Origin: a virus
Reading direction: 5' to 3' (one strand)
Length of the DNA stretch: 64,000 nt
IMG/VR virus record: IMGVR_UViG_3300000117_000009
Span: 32,001-96,000 of that record
Part shown: piece by piece, positions 3,553 through 64,000 of the stretch
Layout of the letters: each line of letters starts with the position of its first letter
Position numbering within the stretch: position 1 is the stretch's first letter
Translations under genes and position numbers: made by a program
The notes under the pieces: model-generated
The model's database searches: none
What the model was told of the DNA's origin: nothing
The model's input: only the letters and a program-made list of their open reading frames with translations

Positions 3553-4266
3553 ATGACAAATATACACTATCTTTATGACGACAATATAGGTAAAGTTGAA
3601 TTGGTCCAACATATGGGCGAAGACATAACAGTTGTTAACTCTGCTAGAGTATCTTTTGGAGTGCAAAAAGACAATCTAGATATAAAAGATCAGAAACTAA
3701 TTAACTATTTAATTAAGCATAGACACACTTCTACGTTAGAACATAATATTGCAACATTTAGAATTAAAGTGCCGCTATTCGTAAGGTCACAACATCATAG
3801 ACACAGAACATGGTCTTATAATGAAATAAGTAGAAGATATACTGATTCTGATATTAAGTTTTATGAGCCCGTTAGATTTAGAACACAACATAAAAGTAAC
3901 AGACAGGCTTCAAATCTAGAAGACACAATTAATCCTTTAATTAACTATAAAACAGACTATAGCTCACAACTTTATAAAAAAACAGCTTCAGACGCTATTT
4001 GTGATCACCATAAAATCTCACTCAAGCTTTTTGATGACCTATTAGCTTCAGGTATTTGTAGAGAGCAAGCTAGAGGCATTTTACCACAGAATCTCTATAC
4101 AGAATATTATGCAACGGCTAATTTAAATAATATACTAAAGTTTATTAATTTAAGATCACATGAAGGTGCACAGTGGGAAATACAAAGACTATCTGATAGC
4201 ATGTTATCTATTGTAAAAGAACTTTGGCCTGTAACTGTTAATAGTTTTATTAATAACCATAAATAG
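3553..4266 (+). CDS. thyX: FAD-dependent thymidylate synthase ThyX
   Basis: NSARVS, HTSTLEH, canonical RHRTWSYNEISRRY, EQARGILP, LRSHEGAQWEI. Confidence 0.95.
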   Translation: MTNIHYLYDDNIGKVELVQHMGEDITVVNSARVSFGVQKDNLDIKDQKLINYLIKHRHTSTLEHNIATFRIKVPLFVRSQHHRHRTWSYNEISRRYTDSDIKFYEPVRFRTQHKSNRQASNLEDTINPLINYKTDYSSQLYKKTASDAICDHHKISLKLFDDLLASGICREQARGILPQNLYTEYYATANLNNILKFINLRSHEGAQWEIQRLSDSMLSIVKELWPVTVNSFINNHK

Positions 4267-4670: not shown

Positions 4671-4895
4671 ATGAATTTAAACGATACAACAATTGCGCAA
4701 ATTGTTAGACTGATACAGATGGCACTTCTTACTGGAACTGATATTGTTGATCACTTAAGAATGTTAATGCTAGAAGTAGATGAAAACCAAAAGCTAGTAA
4801 TTAATAGTGAGTACGAAAGAGTCTTTAATGAGTCACTTGAAAAAATGATGTCTAATATAAGTGAAAGAGAAAGTGAACCTGTTGCAAAAGACTAG
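4671..4895 (+). CDS. Small hypothetical protein
   Basis: AAGGA RBS; operonic ORF. Confidence 0.6.
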   Translation: MNLNDTTIAQIVRLIQMALLTGTDIVDHLRMLMLEVDENQKLVINSEYERVFNESLEKMMSNISERESEPVAKD

Positions 4896-5268
4896 CTTAG
4901 ATAAACTTGATATTCTCTTTGATAAAAGAGAGACTTTTATGGAACTTATCAAGAAAAAATACCCAGACTCATACAAAGATTGGCCTTTAGACATTTCAGA
5001 GAAAAGTAGTCAAGTTTTACTTAGAGACACTGCGCTCAAAGGCGTCGAAGAAATGTTTGAAGCACTAGGACATTTAAAGAACTGGAAGCCTCATAGAGAT
5101 ACTGATATGCCTGAGATTGATAGAGAAGAATTCTTAGAAGAAATAGTTGATGCCTTTAATTACTTCTTTTCTTTAATAATTTTAATGGGTGTTGATGTTA
5201 ATGAATTTTATAATGCTTTTAATAAAAAAGACGAGATAATAAGAAATAGAATTAAAAGCAACTATTGA
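4861..5268 (+). CDS. All-alpha NTP pyrophosphohydrolase (dimeric dUTPase/dCTPase/MazG superfamily)
   Basis: EEMFEA...NWKPH...EEFLEEIVDAFNY...KKDEII; ExxE...EExxD metal motifs and the WKxW/H signature. Confidence 0.8.
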   Translation: MKEKVNLLQKTSLDKLDILFDKRETFMELIKKKYPDSYKDWPLDISEKSSQVLLRDTALKGVEEMFEALGHLKNWKPHRDTDMPEIDREEFLEEIVDAFNYFFSLIILMGVDVNEFYNAFNKKDEIIRNRIKSNY

Positions 5269-5334: not shown

Positions 5335-6306
5335 TTGCCAATTAATAATGATCTTAAACAAGTCACTCTTCCAATGGAACTTAAGTTTGACCAAGTTCCT
5401 GTAACTAACTACATTAACAATCTAGAATCACTTAACATTGAACTAATTGATGGCCCTACTAGAGAACAAGCACAAAAAATTGCTTGGCACATGACAAAAG
5501 CAACATGGGCTGATACGCCTGCAGAAACTGCATTTGAAAACTCTACACCTGAAGAGGCTTCTCTTAATCTTCAAGATGTTCTTAATTTTAGAGCTCTTCC
5601 GACGCCGATGGAATGTTTAGGTTTTACTTTTAAAATTAGCGGAATTGATACACAAACAGTAACACATTTAATTAGACATAGAGCAGGTTCTTTTGCAGCA
5701 CAATGTACTGGCGATAGAGACCTTAGAAACGATAATGTTTTAGTTCCTGAGTCTGTTGAAAATTCAGACTTTCATCATCGATTTATTGAAGTTGCTGCTG
5801 CAGCAAAACAACTTTATTCTGATATGGTTGACTCACGTGCTGTATCACTTATGGACGCAAGAGTTATTCTACCTAAAGCATTAGAAACTTTTTATGTTGC
5901 AAGATTTAATCTTAAAGACTTAATTGGTTTTATTCGTCAACGTCAAGATGTACAAATTCAGCCAGAAGTAGACAATATTATTGCAACTCGTATTGCAAAA
6001 ATTGTTTGTACATCAATTCCTGAAGTTTCTACTTGCTTAAACTTTGAAAAACCAGACATGCATTATGTTCGAACTTTCCGTGTTGAATTACCTGACGGTA
6101 CATTTACATCTCGTGGAACAAATCTTTATTATCCAGAGCCTAAAAACGACTTGTTTGAGTTTAACGAAAAAGACGCTATTTATTCATGTCGTCGTGAAGA
6201 AATTAATGGAAACAAGAAAGGTGAAGAAAAAATCTTTACTAGAATGTGGAACGATGATGTTAAAGCTGTAAGACAAATTAGACAAAATTTAGACAGCGAG
6301 TTTTAA
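5335..6306 (+). CDS. Divergent ThyX-family flavoenzyme (Cys at the position of the motif Ser)
   Basis: THLIRHRAGSFAAQCTGDRD, DARVILP, FIRQR...QPE; TTG start; N- and C-terminal extensions relative to the canonical ThyX. Confidence 0.8.
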   Translation: MPINNDLKQVTLPMELKFDQVPVTNYINNLESLNIELIDGPTREQAQKIAWHMTKATWADTPAETAFENSTPEEASLNLQDVLNFRALPTPMECLGFTFKISGIDTQTVTHLIRHRAGSFAAQCTGDRDLRNDNVLVPESVENSDFHHRFIEVAAAAKQLYSDMVDSRAVSLMDARVILPKALETFYVARFNLKDLIGFIRQRQDVQIQPEVDNIIATRIAKIVCTSIPEVSTCLNFEKPDMHYVRTFRVELPDGTFTSRGTNLYYPEPKNDLFEFNEKDAIYSCRREEINGNKKGEEKIFTRMWNDDVKAVRQIRQNLDSEF

Positions 6307-6385: not shown

Positions 6386-6835
6386 ATGAAAAAGATTTAT
6401 CTTGCAAGTGGTTGGTTTAATCCAGTTCAAGCAGAAGAACTTACTAATTTAGAGAATATTTTTGATGCAAGATCTGATCATTTTGATCTTGCATCACCTA
6501 GAAGAATTTTTGTTTGTCCTCCTAATGCGCCAAAGGAAGTTCAGGATGAAACTTTTACTGGTAACTTGCACCATATTGAAACAGCAGACTTTTTACTAGT
6601 TAATACTCGCGACAAAGATATTGGCACAATTTGGGAGGCTGGCTATGCATTTGCATTTAAAAAGCCAATTATCTATTTTTGCGCAGGTCTTCCAGAAGGT
6701 GCTAAATTTAATCTTATGTTAGCAAGAAGTGGTATTAAGGTCTGCACATCTTTTGAGCAGCTTGAAGAATACTTGGATAGAGTAATATCTACAGGCGAGC
6801 TACCTAATGAACCTTATGCAGCCGCAATTGAATAA
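6386..6835 (+). CDS. Nucleoside 2-deoxyribosyltransferase / nucleotide N-glycosidase (NDT, MilB/Rcl-like) family
   Basis: KIYLASGWF, DIGTIWEAGYA...KPI, FNLML. Confidence 0.88.
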   Translation: MKKIYLASGWFNPVQAEELTNLENIFDARSDHFDLASPRRIFVCPPNAPKEVQDETFTGNLHHIETADFLLVNTRDKDIGTIWEAGYAFAFKKPIIYFCAGLPEGAKFNLMLARSGIKVCTSFEQLEEYLDRVISTGELPNEPYAAAIE

Positions 6836-9104: not shown

Positions 9105-9353
9105 ATGTCATCTTACTCAAAAGGATTAGAAGTTTCTGATCTCGTAACATTTATGCACAAAATTTTTAATAACCAATTTTCAGGCCCACGCACTGCGCTA
9201 GTCTTAAATAGAGAATATCTTTTTGAAAACAAAACAGAATATGGCATTAAAAAGTTTTTTGACTATAAAATGCTAGATACACAAAGTAACAAAGTATATA
9301 ACGTTAAAACAAGAGACATAAAAGTCGTTAAAATTTTAAAAGGAAGCAATTAA
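9105..9353 (+). CDS. Hypothetical protein
   Basis: AAGGA RBS; operonic ORF. Confidence 0.5.
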   Translation: MSSYSKGLEVSDLVTFMHKIFNNQFSGPRTALVLNREYLFENKTEYGIKKFFDYKMLDTQSNKVYNVKTRDIKVVKILKGSN

Positions 9354-10339
9354 TGAGAATAGGCATCACTGGTGAAAAAGGTTTTATTGCAACTAACTTG
9401 TCGAAAGAAATTATCAATCAAGGGCATGAATTTGTATCTATTGATAAGTCAGATTACGCTAAGACTCTGATGATATACACAGAAACTGATGAAGTCTGCG
9501 TATATTCTAATAATGCTGAATCCTGGATTCAATTGTTTAAAAGCCTAAATCTTGACTGCATTGTGCATAATGCAGCTGTTGTGGGAACTGATGTTGTTGC
9601 TTTAAATCCTGAGCATTCTATCAACACGAATATTTTAGGCACACAGACAATTGTTGAAGCTGCAAATAGTTGTGACATGCTAATTGTATACACAGGCACA
9701 ACAGTTATTTATGACACGTATAAGTATCAAGAATTTGATATTTTTGAAAATAGTGAAATATTCCCCAGGACAAATTATGCTGTCCAGAAATACGCTGGTG
9801 AGATGCTAGTAAGGAATAATGCAAAAGAGTGGCTTGTTACACGACCTTTATTTGCTTACGGCGGCATTGGTGATATGAACTCTTTAATTGCGAAGTCTTT
9901 ATTTGGCGTTAAAAATGGAATAGAAAACATTGACATATTTTTAGATCCACAAAAAATTAAAGATTATATGCATGTAGAGGACTTTTGTAATAGTGTTGTA
10001 AGGCTAATCGACTCTAGTGTTAGAAATGAAGACTTTAACATTACAGCTAGCAATCCACATAATACTTTAGAAATAGTTTCTATTATAGAAGAAGTTACCG
10101 GTTCAACCTTGGAAATTGTAGTTAAGTGGCACCCAGAAACAGACTATCTAGGAAATCATAGACTGTCTAATCAAAAGTTTGTTGACTTTATGGGCTTTGC
10201 AAATGTTCGAACACTCAGGGAAGGCATTAATCAGTCATGGCAGTCAATAAAAGATGCGAGTGAAAGTTACAATCCCTTAAAATACTTAGATCAAGCTAAG
10301 GCTCAAGATGTCGACTTAAAACAATTTTTTCCTAAGTAG
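9353..10339 (+). CDS. NAD-dependent epimerase/dehydratase (extended SDR; NDP-sugar modifying)
   Basis: ITGEKGFIA glycine motif, VHNAA, YAVQK (YxxxK), KDYMHVED. Confidence 0.85.
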   Translation: MRIGITGEKGFIATNLSKEIINQGHEFVSIDKSDYAKTLMIYTETDEVCVYSNNAESWIQLFKSLNLDCIVHNAAVVGTDVVALNPEHSINTNILGTQTIVEAANSCDMLIVYTGTTVIYDTYKYQEFDIFENSEIFPRTNYAVQKYAGEMLVRNNAKEWLVTRPLFAYGGIGDMNSLIAKSLFGVKNGIENIDIFLDPQKIKDYMHVEDFCNSVVRLIDSSVRNEDFNITASNPHNTLEIVSIIEEVTGSTLEIVVKWHPETDYLGNHRLSNQKFVDFMGFANVRTLREGINQSWQSIKDASESYNPLKYLDQAKAQDVDLKQFFPK

Positions 10340-18611: not shown

Positions 18612-18677
18612 TATGTGTAAATATAAATATAATATTGTTATAATAAATAAAAACAAGAAAGGTATATAATTTGTCTA
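18612..18677 (+). repeat. 66-bp direct repeat copy 2; dnaE promoter (GTGTAA-N18-TATAAT), RBS and start
   Basis: Direct sequence comparison with 17577..17642. Confidence 0.92.
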
Positions 18678-21600
18678 TTGATTTAATAACTCCACCAGAC
18701 AGGTTTGTTTCTCTTCATTCACACTCAACTTTTAGCACTTTTGATGGATTAGGATACCCATCAGATCATATAGACTTTGTTCTTTCTGAATCTCAAGGAA
18801 TGGATGCCTGGGGACTAACAGATCATGGCAATGGTAACGGTCTTGCTCATGCACATTCTCATGCTGTTAAAATGCAAAAGGCAGGCAAAAACTTTCGTCA
18901 AGTTTACGGTGTAGAGTTTTATTTTGTCCCCTCACTAGATCAATGGACTGATGATTATGCTGCACATCGTCAAGCTATTAAAGACGCAAAGACAGCTGCT
19001 GCTGCTGAAAAGAAAGGCAAAGAAAATATTGTCATTGACGCTGATGATGAAAGTGGCGGACTAGTTATAGAGGACGAAGATGAATCTAAAAAAATCGACA
19101 TTCTCAAAGACGAGTGGAAACGCCGATACCACTTAGTCATCACAGCAAGAAACAGAAAAGGCCTTAATAATCTATTTACACTTGTAAAGAAGTCGTATAA
19201 AGACGGATTCTATAGATACCCACGTGTTGACTTTAAAATGATTAAAGAACATGGAGAAGGCCTTCATATATCAACTGCATGTTTAGGCGGCATCTACAGC
19301 AACCGTATTCTTCGCGGTGTTGCACATGACAAATCACGTGACGAAATTCAAAAAGATCTACAAAACCTATCAGACAGATTTACAGACGCTGTTGGTATTG
19401 AAAACTTTAAATTAGAACTACAATTCAATAAGCTTAATAAACAGCATGTTGTTAATGACTACCTCATAGAACATCACAAACTAACTGGCATTCCTCTTAT
19501 TTCAACAGCAGATTCTCACTACCCGAGTAATGATAAGTGGCAAGCGAGAGAGTTGTATAAGAAGCTTGGATGGTTAGGCAAGAAGGATGGCATGACGCTA
19601 CCTGCTTTTGAAGATCTTAAGTGTGAGTTGTATCCTAAGAATGCTCAACAAATGTGGGATGAATTCTTAGAAGGCTATAAAGAACACGACTTCTACAAAG
19701 GGAATGAGCAACTTGTTAAAGAGTCGATAGAAAGAACACACGACATTGTCTGGAATGACTTTGAAGATACTTGGATAGATGTAAGTGCTAAACTCCCAAC
19801 AATATCAATACCTAACAAGACACCTTTCAAACACCTGTCAGATCTAGTTAAGAATGCTTTGGTTAGCGAAGGGTTGCATACTAATAAAGAGTATGTAGAT
19901 AGAGCTAAGTATGAATTGTCTGACATTAAGTATCTTGGGCACGAAGCTTACTTCATTACAATGTATGAGATCTTTAAAAAAGCAGAAACAAAGACATTAT
20001 TTGGGCCTGCGCGCGGGAGTGGCGGAGGCTCGTTAGTTAACTACTTATTAGGCATTACACAGCTTGACCCTATTCCTTATAACTTGCTTTGGAGTAGATT
20101 TTTAGGTAGGCATCGTGTTTCTTGGCCTGATATTGACACAGACGCTGGTGATCGAGATGAACTCATCAATGCAGCAAAGGAATTGTATGGCGATGATGCT
20201 GTTATTCCAGTATCAAACTTTAATACGCTTAAACTTAAATCACTTGTAAAAGACATTGCAAAGTTTTATGATATTCCGTTTGACGAAGTAAACAAAGTAA
20301 CTGGGCCTCTTCAAGATCAAGTTATGCAAAAAGCAATGGACAAGAATCAAGAAAAGTCTGTATTCGTTCTTAAACATGAAGACTGTATGAAATACTCACC
20401 AGAGTATAATGAATTTATGACAGAATATCCTGAGGTCGCTGAACATGTTGAGACTTTGTTTATGCAGAATAGAGCTATCGGTAGACACGCAGGCGGTGTA
20501 ATAATAGCTGATGCTGATTCTCTTGCAGAGTCAATGCCAATTGTTGGTGTTCGTGGAGAACTACAAACTCCCTGGACAGAAGGCATGAACTTTAGAAATC
20601 TTGAAGATAATGGTTTTCTTAAGTTTGATTTCTTAGGCTTAACATTGCTTAAAGACGTAGAAAACTGCATCTATAGGATTCTCAAAAAGCAAGGAAATAA
20701 TAATCCTACATTCACAGATGCAAGAGCATTCTTTGATAAACATTTAAACTGTAGGTTTGTTAAACAAAATGATCCTAAAGTTTGGGAACATGTATACAAA
20801 GACGGAAAGTTTTGTGGAATATTTCAATTTACAGCGCCTGGTGCTAGAAACTTTGCAAAGGAAGCAGAACCTGATTCTATTGAAGAACTAGCAGCTTTAA
20901 CAGCTATATACAGACCCGGTCCACTTAAAGCAAATGTGCATAAGAAGTATGTTAAAGCAAAAAGAAACGCTTCAGAAATTAAGTATGATCACCCTATTAT
21001 TGAAAAGATATTAGGGCCTACGTTTAACTACGTAGTTTTTCAAGAGCAGTTTATGCTACTAGCACAGGAGCTAAGTGGATTTGACCCAGGCGAAGCTGAT
21101 AAGCTTAGAAAAACTCTGGTTAAGAAGTCACTAGATACACTTCATTCTAAAGGTTCAGAAAAAGCAATTGCTAGAGAAAAGTTTATCAAGGGTGCTAAAG
21201 AATTAAACGATGTTCCGGAGTCAGTATCATCTAAGTTATGGGAAGACATAGAAAATTTTGCTGTTTACGGCTTTAACAAGTCTCACGCAGTTGCATATGC
21301 TATTGGTTCATATTACGCAGCTTGGTTGCATACGCATCACGAGACTGAGTGGCTGGCTGCAATATTACAGTCTGAAAATGGTAATCCTAAAGGCATGTCA
21401 AAAGCCATTTCAGAGATTAAGTCGTTTGGGTATGAGATTGCTGCAATAGATATAAATCACTCTGAAGCAGAATGGGAATATTCTGAAGTGTTGAAAGCTT
21501 TTGTTCCGCCACTAACATCGCTCAAAGGAGTAGGAGATAAAGCTGTTGAAGAAGTATTTGCGAATAGACCATACAAAAATTTAAATACTCTATTTTATGA

Positions 21601-22246
21601 TGCAGAAGGAGTATGGAAACATTCCAAGTTAAACAAGACAGCTTTTTCTTCGCTAGCGAAGATGGAAGCATTTAAGTCTCTTGACGAGTTTAAAACTGAC
21701 GAATTGGATAATCACAAGCAACTCCATGATTTAATACTTGATAACTATACTACTCTCAAGAAAGGTTATTGGGGAATGACAAAAACTGCAGTAAAAAGAG
21801 CAAAAAAGAATCAAGAAGAAATTGTTCCAATTGTTGAAGATTTATTGACAAAGTATCGAGTTGTTTCTGACTGGAATAGATCAGAAAAAATTAGGAATTA
21901 TTTTGATCTCAGCAATGATGCAAGTGACGACCTCCTGTTTCCACCAAGTTTAATTAAAAAGTTAAACGACAAGCAAATCAACAGCGTCTTTGATATACCT
22001 GCAGGTGAAAGAGGAATTGGCTGGTTTACAGTGACAGAAGTTATTCATAAGACAACAAAAAACAACAAGGCGTTTATGCGATGGAAGTGTGTTGACTCAG
22101 ATAATCGTAGCGGATGGTTAAGAGTTTGGGGTAGTGTTGAAGATGGTGTTGAGTTTAGTACATGGCTTGCTGACGTAAAGAATGATGCTGGATGGGGTAT
22201 GTCATCTACACTTGCTAAACTTAAAAAGATTAATGCGTTTGATTAA
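18671..22246 (+). CDS. dnaE: DNA polymerase III alpha subunit (family C)
   Basis: PHP domain HSHS/TDHG/GVE/TACLGG/DSHY; RGSGGGSLV, PDIDTD, RHAGG, KFDFLGL, RPGP, YGFNKSHA; TTG start. Confidence 0.96.
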   Translation: MSIDLITPPDRFVSLHSHSTFSTFDGLGYPSDHIDFVLSESQGMDAWGLTDHGNGNGLAHAHSHAVKMQKAGKNFRQVYGVEFYFVPSLDQWTDDYAAHRQAIKDAKTAAAAEKKGKENIVIDADDESGGLVIEDEDESKKIDILKDEWKRRYHLVITARNRKGLNNLFTLVKKSYKDGFYRYPRVDFKMIKEHGEGLHISTACLGGIYSNRILRGVAHDKSRDEIQKDLQNLSDRFTDAVGIENFKLELQFNKLNKQHVVNDYLIEHHKLTGIPLISTADSHYPSNDKWQARELYKKLGWLGKKDGMTLPAFEDLKCELYPKNAQQMWDEFLEGYKEHDFYKGNEQLVKESIERTHDIVWNDFEDTWIDVSAKLPTISIPNKTPFKHLSDLVKNALVSEGLHTNKEYVDRAKYELSDIKYLGHEAYFITMYEIFKKAETKTLFGPARGSGGGSLVNYLLGITQLDPIPYNLLWSRFLGRHRVSWPDIDTDAGDRDELINAAKELYGDDAVIPVSNFNTLKLKSLVKDIAKFYDIPFDEVNKVTGPLQDQVMQKAMDKNQEKSVFVLKHEDCMKYSPEYNEFMTEYPEVAEHVETLFMQNRAIGRHAGGVIIADADSLAESMPIVGVRGELQTPWTEGMNFRNLEDNGFLKFDFLGLTLLKDVENCIYRILKKQGNNNPTFTDARAFFDKHLNCRFVKQNDPKVWEHVYKDGKFCGIFQFTAPGARNFAKEAEPDSIEELAALTAIYRPGPLKANVHKKYVKAKRNASEIKYDHPIIEKILGPTFNYVVFQEQFMLLAQELSGFDPGEADKLRKTLVKKSLDTLHSKGSEKAIAREKFIKGAKELNDVPESVSSKLWEDIENFAVYGFNKSHAVAYAIGSYYAAWLHTHHETEWLAAILQSENGNPKGMSKAISEIKSFGYEIAAIDINHSEAEWEYSEVLKAFVPPLTSLKGVGDKAVEEVFANRPYKNLNTLFYDAEGVWKHSKLNKTAFSSLAKMEAFKSLDEFKTDELDNHKQLHDLILDNYTTLKKGYWGMTKTAVKRAKKNQEEIVPIVEDLLTKYRVVSDWNRSEKIRNYFDLSNDASDDLLFPPSLIKKLNDKQINSVFDIPAGERGIGWFTVTEVIHKTTKNNKAFMRWKCVDSDNRSGWLRVWGSVEDGVEFSTWLADVKNDAGWGMSSTLAKLKKINAFD

Positions 22247-22652: not shown

Positions 22653-23543
22653 ATGAGATTTTTCAATATTAATATCGAAGGCCCTGATTGCAGTGGCAAA
22701 ACAACTTTATACAGTCAGCTGCACAAAGAAACTAATTTTAAATATAACATTCAAGACAGAAGTTGTATGTCTATGTTTGTTTATGCAAAGATGTATGGAA
22801 GAGAAGATGCATCACTTTGGTTTGATAAAATTTTAGACGACCTTAAGCGACTAGACACACTTTACATACTTCTTTTACCTTCAGAAAAAACAATTCTTAA
22901 TAGACTACAAAAAAGAGGCGATGATTTTCAAGATAAAGACAGCATTTTAAAAGTAAGAAGTTATTTTAGAAATATTGCAAAAATGGGTTTTGGTTCCTAT
23001 CCTAACGTTTTAGTTTTAGAAGAAGATGATTTAGAAACAAATATAAACAAAACATTACAGTTTATAAACGCTCTAAACGAAATGCCTGGTCAAGAACTAA
23101 TCAAGTCTTTAGTGTTTAGCAGTGGTAGAAATGAATTGATTGATGTACAATGTAAAGAAGAAGTTAATAGAAATCATTTGGATTTAACTGTATTAGACTT
23201 TCCTCAAGAAAAAGAGTATTACGAAAAAATTGAGTTTGAGTTTTTTAATAAAATTTTTAGAGAGTTTGTTGGACTAAACGAACGCAATCAAGCACAAAAG
23301 CATGATAGCAGAAGATTTATCTATACTAGTGATAGTTGTATATCAATGATTCACGTTTTATGGCGCCAAAATAAATTAAATGTATTGGCAACCCTAAGAT
23401 CTTCAAACGTATCAAAAACTTTATGGGCTGATTATGAATTTCTTAAGATACTTAGTGTTAAAACTGCCAAAGAAATGTCTTTACCTGAAGATTGTGTTAT
23501 AAAACTTACAGTTGATATTCGATCGGCACATATAGTACCTTAG
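22653..23543 (+). CDS. Fusion of dNMP kinase (P-loop) and thymidylate-synthase (ThyA)-superfamily domain
   Basis: IEGPDCSGKTT, QDRS, RLQKRGDD; C-terminal half DSRR, SCIS (catalytic Cys), LRSSNVSKTLWAD, SAHI. Confidence 0.78.
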   Translation: MRFFNINIEGPDCSGKTTLYSQLHKETNFKYNIQDRSCMSMFVYAKMYGREDASLWFDKILDDLKRLDTLYILLLPSEKTILNRLQKRGDDFQDKDSILKVRSYFRNIAKMGFGSYPNVLVLEEDDLETNINKTLQFINALNEMPGQELIKSLVFSSGRNELIDVQCKEEVNRNHLDLTVLDFPQEKEYYEKIEFEFFNKIFREFVGLNERNQAQKHDSRRFIYTSDSCISMIHVLWRQNKLNVLATLRSSNVSKTLWADYEFLKILSVKTAKEMSLPEDCVIKLTVDIRSAHIVP

Positions 23544-23552
23544 AGAATTTTT

Positions 23553-24125
23553 ATGAACCCACAATTTATAATTTATACTGGCCCGATGTTTGGGTCAAAA
23601 ACAACAAGATTAATGTCTGATATCGATCGATCCTTATATAAAGGTCGTAAAGTAATAGCTTTCAAAGCTAAAAAAGACAATAGATATACAAAAGAAACAA
23701 TTAGTACACATACTGGTGCAACATATCCAGCATTTTGCATAAACCATGCTGAAGAGATATTGTGTTATGTAAACGAAGACATACATAATTCAAACACAAT
23801 AGTCGCTGTTGACGAAGCTTTTATGATTCAGGATATTGACTCTGTTTTGATTTCTTTATATCGTAAAGGTGTTAATATAATTGTGTCATCAATTCAATTA
23901 GACGCAAACGAGATACCTTTTGAGAACATAAAAAACATGATGCCTTGGGCGACAAAAATCGAAATTTGTCCAGCTGTCTGTACGATCTGTGACCAGGATG
24001 CATATTTTACAGAAGCTATGTTTGATATTAACAGTGCAACACAAGAAGAAAGAATTGGCTCGTTTGGAATGTATGAGCCAAGATGTGCAACCCACTACAC
24101 TAGTTTTAGAGAGACTAAAGATTGA
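23553..24125 (+). CDS. tdk: Thymidine kinase (type II)
   Basis: GPMFGSKTT, DNRY, VDEAF, CTIC...YEPRC..H. Confidence 0.92.
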   Translation: MNPQFIIYTGPMFGSKTTRLMSDIDRSLYKGRKVIAFKAKKDNRYTKETISTHTGATYPAFCINHAEEILCYVNEDIHNSNTIVAVDEAFMIQDIDSVLISLYRKGVNIIVSSIQLDANEIPFENIKNMMPWATKIEICPAVCTICDQDAYFTEAMFDINSATQEERIGSFGMYEPRCATHYTSFRETKD

Positions 24126-25015
24126 AAAAAATTAATGTACCAATTATTCCGAAAGATTTAGGCACAAGGTTCAAGTCGTCAGATATCTGGTTTGTTTGTC
24201 AAACAAACAAATTTGTAAAATCAATTAGACCGCCAAAGTATTCTAGCTTATATAACGGTAAAGCTCATCAAAGATTTGAAGAAGCTTATAGAAAGCATAT
24301 TAAAAATTATCCTGACAATATGTCATTTGTAAAAGCAAGCCTCTTTAATGCGACTAACATTGTAACGCCTAAGCAGATCTTGTTAAATCAAGGTTACACT
24401 TACTATTTTAAACTTTTACCTGAGCAAATCGAAAAATGCCTATTTTCAGTCACTATAGATGGTGAAAATGCTTTAGTAAAAGGTATTCAGGGTTTTGCAG
24501 GAGTATATAAGGTATGGAATGAGAGAAAAGACACATGTACTGAAGTAACATCTTATAGTGACAAGCCAAGTGATAATATTGAAGTTATTATTCCATTTAA
24601 AGTTAAACCTCAATATTACATACCAGAAGTCAAAAAAAGGACTTTTTATCACGGAAGTTTACAAAGATTTAGTTCTTTAAACAAGTTTTCTTACGTAACA
24701 CCTTACAAAGAAGACGCGATTAAATTTGCAATACCTTGGTCATCAGACGAGTTGCTTATAAAAGACAGAGAAATGTCAGATTTAGGTCGGCCGCCTAAGT
24801 GCCTTTACTTTAAAAGAGATATAGAAATAGAAGATAGTAAAGTTTATTTATACGCTATAAAAGGTATTGACACAATTAGCTCTGGAACAAATACAGGAAA
24901 AATCTTTCCTTGGAATAGAATAACATTAAAAGAAGCGTCTGAAGAAGATAAAAGTCTTAAACTTGAAAAGAAGATTATGTCTTGGAAAAAAGTGTTATCA
25001 GCTATTAACATTTAA
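24122..25015 (+). CDS. Two-domain protein with C-terminal Arr-like ADP-ribosyltransferase motifs
   Basis: FYHGS...SYVTP..EDAIKFA...VYLY. Confidence 0.5.
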   Translation: MKKINVPIIPKDLGTRFKSSDIWFVCQTNKFVKSIRPPKYSSLYNGKAHQRFEEAYRKHIKNYPDNMSFVKASLFNATNIVTPKQILLNQGYTYYFKLLPEQIEKCLFSVTIDGENALVKGIQGFAGVYKVWNERKDTCTEVTSYSDKPSDNIEVIIPFKVKPQYYIPEVKKRTFYHGSLQRFSSLNKFSYVTPYKEDAIKFAIPWSSDELLIKDREMSDLGRPPKCLYFKRDIEIEDSKVYLYAIKGIDTISSGTNTGKIFPWNRITLKEASEEDKSLKLEKKIMSWKKVLSAINI

Positions 25016-25469
25016 CAGGCGTATATTCTATATTACTGTCATGTTTTTTTAGATCAATTCTAACTTGCTCTAACGTATCTTCCCTGTCATCCCAAAACTT
25101 AACGTAAGTTATATTATCATTTGCACATATTTCATCTAATATTACATGAGACTTATAAATTGGTGCTCTTTCTTTTCTGTAAGCAGACTTAAAGTAACAT
25201 TGATCAAAATCGTTTAAAGACATATTGTTTTGATTTAAAAGCTCTTCTGTTGACATTATATATTCAGATTTATTTGTTCTTGCTGTGCAAAGTATTACTC
25301 TTGTTTGAGAATTACCTAGAGAGTTTTGAAGTTCAGCAACAATATTTTCTATCCAATCTTCTTTTTTATGATCGTATAACGTCATATCAAAGTCATAAAT
25401 ATGTAATGTATTTATTGGTTCTTTTTTTATAATATACTTTATGTAGTTTTCCAGTAGTAAATTAGACAT
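25005..25469 (-). CDS. HAD-family phosphatase; start revised to MSNLLLENYIK
   Basis: YDFDMTL, LCTAR, K, FWDDR motifs; GAGG RBS upstream of ATG at 25469. Confidence 0.75.
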   Translation of the reverse strand: MSNLLLENYIKYIIKKEPINTLHIYDFDMTLYDHKKEDWIENIVAELQNSLGNSQTRVILCTARTNKSEYIMSTEELLNQNNMSLNDFDQCYFKSAYRKERAPIYKSHVILDEICANDNITYVKFWDDREDTLEQVRIDLKKHDSNIEYTPVKC

Positions 25470-25488
25470 AAAACCTCGGAGTAATTTA

Positions 25489-25908
25489 ATGGTAGATATA
25501 AATAGGCCTTCATGGGACAAAATTTGGATGCAAATGGCAGAAACTATTGCTCAACGTAGCCATCACCCAACTTTTAAAGTAGGTGCACTTATAGTAACGT
25601 CAGATAATACGCAAGTTCTTTCCTTAGGATATAATGGTCGCGCAGCAGGAATGTCAAACGTACCTCAATCTGATGAACCTGGGTGTAGTGGTTTATTGCA
25701 TGCTGAAATTAATGCGTTGCTTAAACTTGACTATAATAATCCTAAAGATAAGGTAATGTACATTACACTAAGCCCTTGCGAAAATTGTGCAATGGCAATT
25801 ATAAATAGCGGCATAAAAAAAGTAGTGTACAAAGATGAGTATAGAGACATGTCAGGTGTAGATTTATTGAGAAAAGCAAATATTACTGTTAATAATATAT
25901 ATTTATAG
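25489..25908 (+). CDS. dCMP deaminase
   Basis: RPSWD, KVGA, GYNG, HAEINAL, SPCENC. Confidence 0.92.
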   Translation: MVDINRPSWDKIWMQMAETIAQRSHHPTFKVGALIVTSDNTQVLSLGYNGRAAGMSNVPQSDEPGCSGLLHAEINALLKLDYNNPKDKVMYITLSPCENCAMAIINSGIKKVVYKDEYRDMSGVDLLRKANITVNNIYL

Positions 25909-48317: not shown

Positions 48318-48617
48318 ATGAAAAACAAAGGTAGAAATTTAGATTATGGCCATGTAAAGTCAGATTCCGGTGAAGGTAAAATGGCTAAAACAACTTTGTT
48401 GACTATGGGAAGAGACTTATATAACTTGTATATGTTACTTAATGATCAAGATGACTTACCACAGTGGTGTCATTATAAACTAGCAAAAAGTAGTGCAGAT
48501 TTGTCAACTGTAACAGACTACCTTACATCAAAAATAACAAAGTTATGTATCGATAGAAATATTGATGCAAATACGCTTAGGCTTCACATAAAGGAGTCTT
48601 TTAAAAATGAAGACTAA
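48318..48617 (+). CDS. Phage-type helical protein (EGxMA...DDLPxW...DYL pattern)
   Basis: EGKMAKTTL...DDLPQWCHYKL...VTDYL. Confidence 0.6.
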   Translation: MKNKGRNLDYGHVKSDSGEGKMAKTTLLTMGRDLYNLYMLLNDQDDLPQWCHYKLAKSSADLSTVTDYLTSKITKLCIDRNIDANTLRLHIKESFKNED

Positions 48618-49245
48618 CATATTAGTTGAGAGCTGGAAAAACTTTATTAAAGAGCAAGATGAATTAGACCCTATTACATTGCCAACGAGAATAGAGCCAG
48701 AAATATTTACATTTGGTTTAGTTCCAATGTCAGCGAAACCTTTCCATAAAGGACATATGTTTTTAATAAAAGCAGCTTCTGAAAGATGTAAGAAAGTAAT
48801 AGTATACGTTTCTATTTCTGATAGATCACGTAAAGGAGAAATAACTATTCACGGTGAAGATATGCAATTTATATGGGAAAGTATTATAACAAAGTATCTT
48901 CCTGAAAATGTGAAATGTATATACGGTGGCTCTCCTATAAGTAAAGTATATGAATTTTTAGGCGATATTTCTGAACATGGAGGAGGCGATCAGACATATG
49001 CAATATACACTGGCCAAGATGACGCAAAAAGATACCAAGAAAAGTATTACGAAAACATAAAAGATCAAGTCTGGATAAAAGAGTTTTTAAGAGGTAATGA
49101 TTCCCCAGACGTAAGCGGAACATTAATGAGGTCTTATTTATCAAACGCTTCTCAAGACAAGTTTTTGTTTTTAGATGGATTGCCAAATATGTCTGACTCA
49201 GATAAAGAAGAAATATTTAATATTTTATTTAGAAGATTAAATTAA
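48607..49245 (+). CDS. Cytidylyltransferase-like (HxGH) nucleotidyltransferase
   Basis: KPFHKGH, VSGTLMR (SxT/R motif); N-terminal ILVESWKNFIKE tag. Confidence 0.78.
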   Translation: MKTNILVESWKNFIKEQDELDPITLPTRIEPEIFTFGLVPMSAKPFHKGHMFLIKAASERCKKVIVYVSISDRSRKGEITIHGEDMQFIWESIITKYLPENVKCIYGGSPISKVYEFLGDISEHGGGDQTYAIYTGQDDAKRYQEKYYENIKDQVWIKEFLRGNDSPDVSGTLMRSYLSNASQDKFLFLDGLPNMSDSDKEEIFNILFRRLN

Positions 49246-63440: not shown

Positions 63441-64000
63441 ATGAGAATTAATAATAAAGAAGTATTAAGTTTTGATGATGTAATATTAGAACCACAATAC
63501 TCAGATCTAATAACACGAAAAGACATAAACACTTCAGTGACAGTTAGATACTCTGAAAAGAGTTTAGGATTTAAAATACCAATCATCAGTTCACCTATGT
63601 CAACAGTTACAGAAGCGCATATGTCTAACGCAATGATTAGTCAGGGCGGTTTAGGTATTATCCATAGGTATAATACAATCGACTTTCAGACAAAGCTCTT
63701 AGGATATGTCAATCATAGAGATTATAGGGCAGCTGCAATTGGCGTAACTGGAGATTATAAAGAAAGACTGTCTGAACTTGTAAATAATGATCTAAATATT
63801 GTCTGTATTGATATTGCGCATGGTGATCATATTCTTATGGAAAACGCAATAGAATTCATCAGAAATGAATATCCGCATCTATTTGTTATAGCAGGAAACG
63901 TTGCTACAGGACATGCATATAAAAGACTGGCAATGGCAGGTGCACATGCAGTCAGAACATCTGTAGGTAGCGGAAGTATTTGTACAACAAGAATACAAAC
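63441..64000 (+). CDS. IMP dehydrogenase / GMP reductase family (no CBS insert), truncated by window end
   Basis: LSFDDVILEP..S, PIISSPMSTVTE, GGLGIIHR, IDIAHG, AGNVATG, VGSGSICTTR. Confidence 0.9.
   Translation, partial: MRINNKEVLSFDDVILEPQYSDLITRKDINTSVTVRYSEKSLGFKIPIISSPMSTVTEAHMSNAMISQGGLGIIHRYNTIDFQTKLLGYVNHRDYRAAAIGVTGDYKERLSELVNNDLNIVCIDIAHGDHILMENAIEFIRNEYPHLFVIAGNVATGHAYKRLAMAGAHAVRTSVGSGSICTTRIQ

What the first reader, a model, noticed from the sequence alone, without database searches (positions are those of the whole stretch)
22653..23543. dNMP kinase fused to a ThyA-like domain with an Asp specificity residue: candidate cytosine-modifying enzyme
Seen: the C-terminal half has ThyA landmarks (DSRR, catalytic Cys in SCIS, RS, SAH). 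RSSNVSKTLWADY aligns with ThyA RSCDVFLGLPFNI, placing Asp at the Asn177-equivalent position and Asn at the Asp169-equivalent position; much of the folate-binding N-terminal part appears absent. Established: Asp at this position confers dCMP specificity in T4 dCMP hydroxymethylase. Since a canonical ThyX already supplies dTMP, the inference is that this protein makes and then phosphorylates a modified dCMP, possibly by non-folate chemistry.
Basis: partly seen in the sequence, partly recalled or inferred. Interest (0 to 1): 0.8.

Follow-up and report, generated by a model that had tools for sequence, protein, structure and literature searches.

The report
Kinase fused to mini thymidylate-synthase enzyme
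An uncultured marine jumbo phage encodes one 296-residue protein joining a small thymidylate-kinase-like kinase to a half-size, cytosine-type thymidylate-synthase-fold domain; it probably makes and phosphorylates an altered dCMP (5-hydroxy-dCMP is the best guess), but no assay shows this.

Summary
ORF 22653-23543 (+) is real, and several hundred marine-metagenome proteins share its ~296-aa architecture.

- **Kinase half (residues 1-145):** a compact YorR/thymidylate-kinase-like P-loop kinase. The usual base-binding insert is missing.
- **TS-like half (residues 146-296):** an unambiguous but stripped thymidylate-synthase (TS) fold. VIA Z is 9.8-11.8 to seven TS-superfamily chains; the next hit is 5.5.
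- **Kept:** SRR, Cys229, R249-S250, His293, Asp260 at the ThyA Asn177 site and Asn252 at the Asp169 site. That pair is the published signature of flavin/O2-dependent 5-hydroxy-dCMP synthases.
- **Lost:** about 70 residues of the folate-side helices and the C-terminal tail.

- Asn/Asp at position 252 flips at least 10 times across the family, so it is weak evidence for the chemistry.
- In the window's clade all catalytic residues are 100% conserved, and the TS core is the best-conserved part.
- A sister lineage, including a complete 239.5-kb genome, has lost Cys, RS and His. It keeps the kinase at 88% identity, so the kinase also works on its own.
- That genome also lacks the nucleotide-sugar epimerase found in relatives with an intact domain.

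The scan reached the same reading earlier on other genomes. Verdict: a new variant of a known kind, function untested.

The parts
22653..23543 (+). Whole gene: 296-aa kinase / TS-like fusion (stop codon included)
   Evidence: ORF list. 455 homologues of ~296 aa. AF2 pLDDT 97.4, pTM 0.92.
22653..23087 (+). N-terminal compact P-loop kinase domain (residues 1-145), YorR / thymidylate-kinase-like
   Evidence: Family profile vs PDB: YorR 2axp E 1.8e-15, TMK 5xbh E 1.3e-6. VIA: YorR Z 13.6, TMKs Z ~12 over residues 4-146. PHROG 761 'thymidylate kinase' E 5.8e-18. TIGR00041 25.9 bits, below its cut-off.
22677..22706 (+). P-loop EGPDCSGKTT (Asp12, Lys16)
   Evidence: Near-invariant in 68 diverse and 116 close homologues. 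The Asp in the loop is TMK-like (my knowledge of TMK motifs).
22755..22763 (+). DRS motif (Asp35-Arg36), equivalent of the TMK 'DR[YF]' motif
   Evidence: Aligned to TMK ILDRF in the profile search. D35 in 64/68 and R36 in 67/68.
22902..22922 (+). LID-like RLQKRGD (Arg84, Arg88, Asp90)
   Evidence: Conserved 62-67 of 68. Aligned to the TMK LID region.
23088..23540 (+). C-terminal minimal thymidylate-synthase-fold domain (residues 146-296)
   Evidence: Domain model pLDDT 96.9. VIA-wide top 7 are all TS superfamily, Z 9.8-11.8. Foldseek top hits are 9iqu and 9iqc, the phage dCMP hydroxylase. BFVD hits are all TS/dCMP-hydroxymethylase-like.
23307..23315 (+). SRR (Arg220-Arg221), equivalent of ThyA Arg126/Arg127 phosphate clamp
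   Evidence: hhalign to ThyA, T4 gp42 and RB69 gp48. 66/68 and 63/68 conserved.
23334..23345 (+). SCIS with Cys229, equivalent of the ThyA Cys146 nucleophile
   Evidence: Alignments. 65/68 diverse and 116/116 close homologues.
23397..23408 (+). RSSN: Arg249-Ser250 (ThyA Arg166-Ser167) and Asn252 at the ThyA Asp169 site
   Evidence: Alignments. Asn252 is fixed in the close clade (120/120). Across the family it is N 38, D 23, H 3, E 2, with at least 10 changes on the tree.
23430..23432 (+). Asp260 at the ThyA Asn177 / T4 Asp179 specificity site
   Evidence: Only invariant column, 68/68. Kept even in Cys-less relatives.
23523..23531 (+). SAH with His293 (ThyA His207). The protein ends three residues later
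   Evidence: Alignments. 65/68 conserved.
23553..24125 (+). Context: thymidine kinase, always immediately or nearly downstream
   Evidence: Pfam TK E 3.8e-32. Found downstream of the fusion gene (adjacent, or with inserted ORFs between) in 17 of 17 related IMG/VR loci.
25489..25908 (+). Context: dCMP deaminase
   Evidence: Pfam E 7.8e-25, PHROG 174 E 1.1e-47. Syntenic in most related loci.
3553..4266 (+). Context: canonical ThyX (RHRTWSYNEISRRY)
   Evidence: Pfam Thy1 E 2.8e-46. TIGR02170 169.6 bits against cut-off 87.9. Motif read.
4861..5268 (+). Context: all-alpha NTP pyrophosphohydrolase-like protein (possible dCTPase-type enzyme; substrate unknown)
   Evidence: PHROG 12184 E 1.4e-16. Weak Pfam dUTPase_2 / PRA-PH hits below cut-off. 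Co-located with the fusion gene in the most distant relative, L022.
9353..10339 (+). Context, tentative: nucleotide-sugar epimerase that tracks relatives with an intact TS-like domain
   Evidence: Pfam Epimerase E 1e-27. PHROG 540 E 1e-43. Present in G002, G003 and G005 (intact domain). Absent from the complete G001, whose TS-like domain is dead.

Best explanation
The gene most likely encodes a bifunctional nucleotide enzyme of a marine jumbo phage.

TS-like domain (inferred): it binds dCMP. Arg220/Arg221, Arg249 and Ser250 hold the phosphate, and Asp260 reads the cytosine N3/N4. Cys229 attacks C6, which activates C5. A substituent is then installed by chemistry that does not use methylene-tetrahydrofolate. 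The leading candidate is flavin/O2 hydroxylation to 5-hydroxy-dCMP, as in phage HY126 AfhB and RB69 gp48.

Kinase domain (inferred): the fused thymidylate-kinase-like domain phosphorylates the product to the diphosphate so that it can reach the DNA polymerase. The same kinase probably also serves as a general pyrimidine dNMP (dTMP) kinase. It persists unchanged in a relative whose TS-like domain is dead, and that complete genome has no other TMK.

Shown: the fold, the motifs, their conservation pattern, the fusion and the synteny.

Not shown: substrate, cofactor, product, dimer formation, and any change to virion DNA.
For: 1. TS fold. VIA Z is 11.8 to 9iqc (flavin-dependent dCMP monooxygenase), 11.4 to ThyA, 10.3 to MilA and 9.8 to T4 dCH; the next hit is 5.5. 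Foldseek top hits are 9iqu and 9iqc.
2. Sequence register. hhalign gives 93.5% to T4 gp42, 88.8% to RB69 gp48 and 60.6% to ThyA.
3. Published signature. Asp at the Asn177 site plus Asn at the Asp169 site is what Lee et al. used to pick nine diverse TS homologues. All nine made 5hodC (PMC13326640).
4. Need for a kinase. In that paper 5hodC reached the DNA in amounts visible by UV only when a cognate dNMP kinase was co-expressed.
5. Kinase as neighbour in known clusters. A YorR/TMK-like 'nucleotide kinase' sits beside the synthase in the DLP3, RB69 and RL38J1 clusters (Table 1). Here the two are one polypeptide.
6. Selection pattern. In 116 close homologues every catalytic residue of both domains is 100% conserved. 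The TS core is the most conserved part, 85% against 82% for the kinase. Window vs P0121: TS core 75%, kinase 49%.
7. Relaxed lineage. In the Cys-less lineage the pattern reverses: kinase 88%, TS core 67%. This is what is expected if catalysis is the selected function where the residues are kept.
8. Loss of folate elements. About 70 residues and the C-terminal tail are missing. My knowledge: Asp169Asn disables folate activation (compare the title of PDB 1bjg).
9. Context. The gene sits in a conserved DnaE / fusion / TK / dCMP deaminase block. ThyX, an NTP pyrophosphatase-like protein, a ThyX paralogue and an NDT lie nearby, also in distant relatives.
10. A canonical TMK coexists with the fusion in G004, so there the fused kinase is not simply the phage TMK.
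Against: - No biochemical or DNA-level evidence exists.
- Structure does not separate hydroxylase from classical TS: Z 11.8 vs 11.4 is a tie.
- Residue 252 switches between Asn and Asp (also His, Glu) at least 10 times on the family tree. It cannot be a strict determinant of chemistry here, unless the chemistry itself flips often.
- The domain is about 70-80 residues smaller than AfhB (217-234 aa), and where a flavin would sit is unknown.
- The loop between Arg249 and Asp260 is not conserved between clades.
- The kinase lacks the TMK base-binding segment (54-residue gap), so its acceptor is uncertain.
- No GT1, GT2 or T4-type DNA glucosyltransferase family was detected in five related records. 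The only complete one is the Cys-less genome, so this weighs little.
- A sister lineage does without the catalytic residues, so the activity is dispensable.
Confidence: 0.5

Rival explanations
1. The protein is essentially the phage's pyrimidine dNMP (dTMP) kinase. The TS-derived domain is a non-catalytic nucleotide-binding, dimerisation or regulatory module that replaces the lost base-binding segment of the kinase. No base is modified.
For: - The kinase lacks the TMK alpha2-alpha3 base-binding region.
- TK lies just downstream in 17 of 17 loci.
- The complete relative G001 has no other TMK.
- Its fusion protein has lost Glu186, Cys229, Arg249, Ser250 and His293. It keeps an open frame, Asp260 and an 88%-conserved kinase.
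- P0123 and P0153 show the same loss.
Against: - Cys229, Arg220/221, Arg249/Ser250 and His293 are kept in 63-67 of 68 diverse members and in 116 of 116 of the window's clade.
- In that clade the TS core is the slowest-evolving part. A mere binding module would not need the nucleophile.
- Constraint on the domain drops once the residues are lost.
- A canonical TMK coexists with the fusion in G004.
Confidence: 0.15
2. The TS-like domain is a folate-dependent dCMP methylase or hydroxymethylase, as in T4 gp42 or the XP12 type. It makes 5-hm-dCMP or 5-methyl-dCMP, which the kinase then phosphorylates.
For: - The best profile match is T4 gp42 (93.5%).
- Asp260 is at the dCMP-specificity site.
- An acidic residue (Asp227) lies near the ThyA Leu143 position.
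- 23 of 68 family members keep Asp at the 169 site.
Against: - The window's clade has Asn252 in 120 of 120. By my knowledge of ThyA Asp169Asn this blocks opening of the folate imidazolidine ring. In Lee et al. it marks hydroxylases, not hydroxymethylases.
- The helices carrying Trp80/Trp83/Tyr94 and the folate-closing C-terminus are absent.
- Pfam's TS model fails.
Confidence: 0.12
3. The domain uses the Cys-C6 adduct for some other, cofactor-light reaction on a cytosine nucleotide. Examples: C5 proton exchange, transfer of a different electrophile, or working with the neighbouring ThyX paralogue and NTP pyrophosphatase in an undescribed pathway.
For: - The cofactor side of the pocket is missing and is not conserved between clades.
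- Asn/Asp/His/Glu are all tolerated at residue 252.
- A divergent ThyX paralogue (RHRAGSFAAQCTGDR), an NTP pyrophosphatase-like protein and an NDT co-occur with the fusion, down to 36% identity.
Against: - There is no precedent in the TS superfamily for such a reaction as the physiological role.
- The residues that are kept are those of classical C5 substitution chemistry.
- A phage zinc dCMP deaminase already covers deamination.
Confidence: 0.15

Closest known systems
Flavin/O2-dependent 5-hydroxy-dCMP synthases of the TS superfamily: phage HY126 AfhB (PDB 9iqu, 9iqc), RB69 gp48, DLP3 gp80, RL38J1 gp216 (PMC13326640)
   Same: - TS fold and catalytic Cys.
- Asp at the Asn177 site and Asn at the Asp169 site; an SAH motif as in RB69 gp48.
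- Top Foldseek and VIA hits.
- They act with a nucleotide kinase, and a YorR/TMK-like kinase is a cluster neighbour.
   Different: - Only 151 residues against 217-240; the internal helices and C-terminal part are missing.
- Fused to the kinase.
- About 15% identity.
- The Asn is not fixed across the family.
- No flavin evidence.
- No recognisable DNA glycosyltransferase found nearby.
T4 gp42 dCMP hydroxymethylase together with T4 gp1 dNMP kinase and gp56 dCTPase
   Same: - Best profile-profile match, with Asp at the specificity site.
- Same pathway logic: NTP pyrophosphatase, then a TS homologue, then a dNMP kinase. A dCMP deaminase is also present.
   Different: - T4 keeps Asp169 and the folate site and uses CH2-THF.
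- Its kinase is a separate protein of a different family (gp1 type).
- The window's pyrophosphatase-like protein has no shown dCTPase activity.
Bacillus SPbeta YorR (PDB 2axp, 3kb2) and bacterial or archaeal thymidylate kinases
   Same: - P-loop GPDxxGKTT, DR motif and LID arginines.
- Profile E 1.8e-15 to YorR. VIA Z 13.6 (YorR) and ~12 (TMKs).
   Different: - About 28 residues shorter than YorR and about 54 shorter than TMK between the P-loop and the DR motif, so the base-binding helices are absent.
- Below the Pfam and TIGRFAM TMK cut-offs.
- YorR's own function is unknown.
Classical ThyA and other bifunctional TS fusions (DHFR-TS)
   Same: - Same fold and ungapped alignment from Cys146 to Asn177.
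- Precedent for fusing TS to the enzyme of a neighbouring pathway step.
   Different: - No folate-binding elements.
- Asp for Asn177 and Asn for Asp169.
- The fusion partner is a kinase, at the N-terminus.
- dTMP supply is already covered by ThyX.

Membership tests
Thymidylate synthase superfamily (fold level) | TS alpha/beta fold | tested here: met
   VIA-wide: seven TS-superfamily chains at Z 9.8-11.8, 135-137 of 151 residues aligned; the next chain is Z 5.5. Foldseek PDB and BFVD lists are all TS-like.
Thymidylate synthase superfamily (fold level) | Catalytic Cys (ThyA Cys146) plus phosphate-binding Arg126/Arg127, Arg166/Ser167 and His207 | tested here: met
   Cys229, Arg220/221, Arg249/Ser250 and His293 are aligned by hhalign and MAFFT. 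They are conserved in 63-67 of 68 members.
Thymidylate synthase superfamily (fold level) | Match to the curated family model (Pfam PF00303) | tested here: not met
   No PF00303 hit at E <= 1 for the protein, nor at E <= 0.1 in five related records. Only PHROG 160 at E 0.04.
Folate-dependent TS / dCMP hydroxymethylase (ThyA, T4 gp42) | Folate-binding elements (Trp80/Trp83 helix region, C-terminal closing segment) and Asp169 | tested here: not met
   The domain spans ThyA 3-210 with only 137 aligned residues and ends 3 residues after His207. Asn252 replaces Asp169.
5-hydroxy-dCMP synthase (AfhB / RB69 gp48 type) | Asp at the ThyA Asn177 site | tested here: met
   Asp260, invariant in 68 of 68.
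5-hydroxy-dCMP synthase (AfhB / RB69 gp48 type) | Asn at the ThyA Asp169 site (diagnostic in PMC13326640) | tested here: met
   Asn252 in the window and in 120 of 120 close homologues. Across the family it is N 38, D 23, H 3, E 2, with at least 10 changes on the tree, so its diagnostic value here is doubtful.
5-hydroxy-dCMP synthase (AfhB / RB69 gp48 type) | Acidic residue at the ThyA Leu143 site | tested here: inconclusive
   Asp227 lies two residues, not three, before Cys229, next to a deletion. The alignment is off by one.
5-hydroxy-dCMP synthase (AfhB / RB69 gp48 type) | Bound flavin and O2-dependent formation of 5hodCMP | not testable with these tools
   Needs purified protein.
5-hydroxy-dCMP synthase (AfhB / RB69 gp48 type) | Full-size TS body of about 217-240 residues | tested here: not met
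   151 residues; aligned to 9iqc 18-227 with 135 residues.
Thymidylate kinase / dNMP kinase | P-loop with Asp, DR motif, LID arginines | tested here: met
   EGPDCSGKTT, DRS and RLQKRGD, aligned to the TMK motifs and conserved.
Thymidylate kinase / dNMP kinase | NMP (base)-binding helices between the P-loop and the DR motif | tested here: not met
   54-residue gap against Aquifex TMK and 28-residue gap against YorR in the profile alignments.
Thymidylate kinase / dNMP kinase | Score above the curated family cut-offs | tested here: not met
   Pfam PF02223: 20.2 bits against cut-off 27. TIGR00041: 25.9 against 83.25.
YorR-like phage kinases (PDB 2axp/3kb2) | Sequence-profile and structural match over the whole domain | tested here: met
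   hmmsearch E 1.8e-15, profile 7-139 vs chain 3-164. VIA Z 13.6, rmsd 2.8, 139 aligned.

The most novel reading that the evidence does not exclude
This abundant clade of ocean jumbo phages replaces (some) cytosine with a 5-hydroxycytosine-derived base, possibly sugar-decorated. A half-size TS fold with no cofactor pocket of its own makes the base. Its cofactor or acceptor site is completed by the fused kinase, so synthesis and phosphorylation are channelled within one 296-residue protein.

The nucleotide-sugar epimerase at 9353-10339 would belong to the same pathway. It is present in relatives with an intact TS-like domain and absent from the complete genome whose domain is dead.
Probability: 0.25. 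Interest if true: 0.8.

Novelty: new variant of a known kind. Interest (0 to 1): 0.62.

Why it matters
**If the domain is active:**
- It would be the smallest known working thymidylate-synthase-fold enzyme, and the first fused to the kinase that takes its product onward.
- It would show which parts of this heavily studied fold are needed for Cys-C6 activation of a pyrimidine once folate chemistry is given up.
- It would imply that a widespread group of marine jumbo phages carries non-canonical cytosine. The group was seen in at least eight marine sequencing studies from 2012 to 2024, and several hundred homologues are known. That bears on host defence evasion, on sequencing and quantification biases in ocean viromics, and on sources of new DNA-modifying enzymes.

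**A natural control exists.** The lineage with a dead TS-like domain and an intact kinase offers a ready comparison for experiments.

**If the domain only binds nucleotides:** it is still an unusual case of an enzyme fold recruited as the substrate module of a kinase.

Tried and rejected
- **Cultured relatives.** GenBank phage tblastn with the window protein found only a weak kinase-domain match. P0230 gave only kinase-domain matches, and P0234 gave none. DnaE has no close cultured relative.
- **Other architectures.** Shorter forms are 20 singletons, nearly all on contigs under 6 kb, and are probably fragments.
- **Glycosyltransferases.** Pfam GT2, GT1 and T4 beta-glucosyltransferase models found nothing in G000-G004. 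The T4 model also found nothing in the control genomes. The only complete record (G001) is the lineage with the dead domain. So this neither supports nor excludes glycosylation.
- **Palindrome and restriction-site avoidance** in G000 and G001: only mild effects (O/E mostly 0.8-1.1; GTAC 0.66-0.79). This does not discriminate.
- **Sequencing runs.** 20 marine DNA holders from 8 studies, all kept as assembled contigs. No raw or long reads were available to look for modification signals, and no RNA holder is listed.
- **S-CBWM1.** A 151-aa protein of Synechococcus phage S-CBWM1 (A0A3G1L3Q7) resembles the domain structurally (TM 0.60). The family profile finds nothing in that genome, so homology is not established.
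- **RB69 gp45 vs the window kinase.** Only P-loop-level similarity (hhalign 24 columns; blastp E 0.002). There is no specific kinship beyond the YorR/TMK type.
- **The NTP pyrophosphatase-like protein** had no meaningful hit in the PDB sequence search.
- **ESM Atlas.** Nearest clusters are unnamed viral proteins of 144-195 aa, plus one cluster in which 12% of members carry PF00303. This is a lead only.
- **Glu186/Tyr189/Tyr190.** I first took these as ThyA Glu58/Trp61/Phe62, but MAFFT places that helix on ThyA helix G. Without coordinates the equivalence is unresolved.
Full report
**What is there.** ORF 22653-23543 (+) encodes 296 residues. The window is bases 32001-96000 of a 107.3-kb IMG/VR viral contig, about 42% complete, with about 31% G+C.

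It belongs to an uncultured marine jumbo-phage lineage. The genome carries DnaE, RecA, a gp32-like protein, DnaB, RNR, GroEL, a sigma-70 factor and a very rich nucleotide-metabolism set. No close cultured relative was found. The protein has 455 homologues of about 296 aa in marine metagenomes. A search of 1.8 billion cluster representatives with the C-terminal half found 119 clusters. Where full length, nearly all have the domain at the C-terminus of a ~300-aa protein.

**The N-terminal half.** A profile of 68 diverse homologues (A1) matches Bacillus SPbeta YorR (2axp/3kb2) at E 1.8e-15 and thymidylate kinases at E 1e-6 and weaker.
- The AlphaFold model (pLDDT 97.4, pTM 0.92) aligns residues 4-146 to YorR at Z 13.6 and to many TMKs at Z ~12.
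- The P-loop EGPDCSGKTT, the DRS motif and the LID-like RLQKRGD are near-invariant.
- The domain is stripped. Against TMK, 54 residues between the P-loop and the DR motif are missing (28 against YorR). In TMK these are the helices that hold the base.
- It scores below the Pfam and TIGRFAM TMK cut-offs.
- So 'dNMP kinase' is a reasonable family-level call, but the acceptor is not established.

**The C-terminal half.** Folded alone (pLDDT 96.9) and compared with 48,161 PDB representatives without Foldseek pre-filtering, the only hits above Z 5.5 are seven TS-superfamily chains:
- the flavin-dependent dCMP monooxygenase 9iqc (Z 11.8, 135 residues aligned);
- three ThyA chains (Z 10.8-11.4);
- MilA (Z 10.3);
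- a plant DHFR-TS (Z 10.3);
- T4 dCMP hydroxymethylase (Z 9.8).

Foldseek ranks the phage HY126 dCMP hydroxylase AfhB first, both for the whole protein and for the domain. BFVD hits are all TS or dCMP-hydroxymethylase-like.

Profile-profile alignment gives 93.5% to T4 gp42, 88.8% to RB69 gp48 and 60.6% to E. coli ThyA. The alignment to ThyA is ungapped from Cys146 to Asn177. The equivalences are:
- SRR = Arg126/127
- Cys229 = Cys146
- Arg249-Ser250 = Arg166-Ser167
- Asn252 = Asp169
- Asp260 = Asn177
- His293 = His207

The 151 residues span ThyA 3-210. About 70 internal residues are gone (the region that in ThyA carries Trp80, Trp83 and Tyr94), as is everything after His207. Pfam's TS model does not see the domain.

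**Link to the literature.** Lee et al. (NAR 2026, PMC13326640) show the following:
- RB69 gp48 and DLP3 gp80, both TS homologues, make 5-hydroxy-dCMP with a flavin and O2.
- Asn177Asp plus Asp169Asn is a diagnostic signature. Nine diverse homologues chosen by it all made 5hodC.
- Incorporation into DNA was visible by UV only when a cognate dNMP kinase was co-expressed.

Their Table 1 lists a YorR/TMK-like 'nucleotide kinase' next to the synthase in the DLP3, RB69 and RL38J1 clusters. The window protein carries both signature residues and is a physical fusion of these two kinds of protein. Direct similarity of its kinase to RB69 gp45 is weak and limited to the shared motifs. No paper describing such a fusion was found.

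1. *The Asn is labile.* Residue 252 is Asn in all 120 close homologues. Across the family it is Asn 38, Asp 23, His 3, Glu 2. On a maximum-likelihood tree built without those columns it changes at least 10 times, 7-9 of them forced by well-supported branches. Either the site does not decide the chemistry in this minimal fold, or the chemistry changes often. Asn252 is thus weaker evidence for hydroxylation than it is in full-size TS homologues.

2. *Catalysis is under selection in the window's clade.* In 116 full-length close homologues every catalytic residue of both domains is 100% conserved. The TS core (216-296) is the best-conserved part: 85% mean identity against 82% for the kinase. Against the next cluster, P0121, the TS core is 75% identical and the kinase only 49%.

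3. *A sister lineage has a dead TS-like domain.* The protein of the complete, terminally redundant 239,550-bp genome G001 (L016) is the main example. P0123 and, separately, P0153 are further ones. Between them these proteins have lost Glu186, Arg220, Cys229, Ser231, Arg249, Ser250 and His293 (P0153 keeps Ser250). All keep an open frame, Asp260 and all the kinase motifs. Between the two Cys-less proteins L016 and P0123 the kinase is 88% identical, but the TS-like parts only 59-67%. This is the reverse of the pattern in the intact clade. It is what one expects if catalysis is the selected function where the residues are present. It also shows that the kinase has a role of its own.

4. *TMK distribution.* G001 has no other TMK-like gene. 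The distant relative G004 has a canonical TMK (211-aa ORF, E 2e-13) beside its fusion gene. So the fused kinase may double as the phage dTMP kinase in some lineages, but it is not simply that.

5. *Synteny.* DnaE / fusion / TK / (variable genes) / dCMP deaminase is conserved in 17 IMG/VR loci, down to 36% identity. In the most distant one the NTP pyrophosphatase-like gene, the ThyX paralogue and the NDT lie alongside. G001 keeps the whole neighbourhood at about 75-88% identity, while the fusion protein is only 60% identical.

6. *Epimerase.* The nucleotide-sugar epimerase at 9353-10339 is present in the three fragmentary relatives with an intact Asn-type domain (G002, G003, G005). It is absent from the complete G001. 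This is one loss event: a lead, not a correlation.

**Mechanism proposed.**
- Shown: fold, motifs, conservation pattern, fusion and synteny.
- Inferred: dCMP binds with its phosphate held by Arg249/Ser250 and Arg220/Arg221, the latter probably from a second subunit as in all TS enzymes (not testable here). Asp260 pairs with N3/N4 of cytosine. Cys229 adds to C6. The activated C5 attacks an electrophile that is not methylene-tetrahydrofolate, most plausibly a flavin hydroperoxide. Elimination releases 5-hydroxy-dCMP. The fused kinase makes the diphosphate.
- An NTP pyrophosphatase-like protein (4861-5268) could feed dCMP from dCTP, as T4 gp56 does. Its substrate is unknown.
- I put 0.5 on 'modifies dCMP at C5 by non-folate chemistry and phosphorylates the product'. 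Hydroxylation specifically is about 0.3.

**Rivals.**
- *A kinase with a non-catalytic TS-derived substrate or dimerisation module (0.15).* This is evidently true of the G001 lineage. It fits poorly in the window's clade, where the nucleophile and its partners are fixed.
- *Folate-dependent methylation or hydroxymethylation (0.12).* This fits poorly with Asn252 and the missing folate elements.
- *Some other Cys-C6 chemistry, perhaps tied to the ThyX paralogue (0.15).*

**Limits.**
- No coordinates were available, so the interdomain geometry, the fate of Glu186/Tyr189/Tyr190 and a possible cofactor site could not be examined.
- Public runs holding this DNA are stored only as contigs, so no read-level modification signal could be sought.
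- Glycosyltransferase searches were negative but uninformative.
- Restriction-site statistics do not discriminate.

**Earlier notes of this scan.** First readers flagged this same stretch in overlapping windows. Follow-up agents reached the same reading for homologues in other genomes: kinase plus mini TS fold, closest to 5hodCMP synthases. That is not independent evidence.

**Verdict.** This is a new architectural variant of a known kind of enzyme. Its function is untested, and it is directly testable by standard expression and LC-MS.

Noticed in passing
window 5335-6306 (+): A second, divergent ThyX-family protein (323 aa; Pfam Thy1 E 2e-19; TIGR02170 53 bits, below the 87.9 cut-off). The canonical RHRxxSxxxxSxRY motif reads RHRAGSFAAQCTGDR. 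It is 84% conserved in the complete relative G001 and sits near the fusion gene in the most distant relative. Function unknown.
   Followed up: partly
window 63441-64000 and beyond; L007:1442-4917: Three consecutive purine-interconversion genes: GMP reductase/IMPDH-family (E 1e-97), adenylosuccinate synthetase-like (E 2e-94) and a fumarate-lyase-family (adenylosuccinate lyase-like) gene (E 2e-28). Together they could convert GMP to AMP in this AT-rich phage. Whether the PurA homologue is a PurZ-type enzyme (2-aminoadenine) was not tested.
   Followed up: no
window 9353-10339 (+): A nucleotide-sugar epimerase is present in G000, G002, G003 and G005, all with an intact TS-like domain. It is missing from the complete genome G001, whose TS-like domain has lost its catalytic residues. 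In G001 the Fpg and HNH genes flank a 720-bp gap there. This is a single loss event.
   Followed up: partly
window 48607-49245 (+): A nucleotidyltransferase-like protein (Pfam Citrate_ly_lig E 4e-5; PHROG 3462 NMN adenylyltransferase E 5e-6). It is absent from G001, present in G005 (75%), and part of a 558-aa ORF near the nucleotide module in G004.
   Followed up: partly
L009, L016, L018-L021 (relatives), DnaE gene; window 18671-22246: In several relatives the DnaE gene is interrupted by extra ORFs of ~316-329 aa or HNH-like ORFs, or is split into two or more pieces. This suggests inteins or homing elements. The window's copy is one 1191-aa ORF.
   Followed up: no
window 24122-25015 (+): A 297-aa ORF overlapping the TK stop has no Pfam, PHROG or NCBIfam match. 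It is present in only some relatives (55-76% identity), including G001.
   Followed up: partly
window 6386-6835 (+) and 25005-25520 (-): A nucleoside 2-deoxyribosyltransferase-family protein (PHROG 7995 E 1.6e-27) and a small HAD phosphatase of the PNKP/Swiss-army-knife type (Pfam E 2.5e-6) add to the unusually large nucleotide-metabolism set.
   Followed up: no
BFVD entry A0A3G1L3Q7, Synechococcus phage S-CBWM1 (MG450654): A 151-aa uncharacterised protein of a cultured cyanophage resembles the minimal TS-like domain structurally (TM 0.60 both ways). The family profile found no sequence match in that genome.
   Followed up: partly
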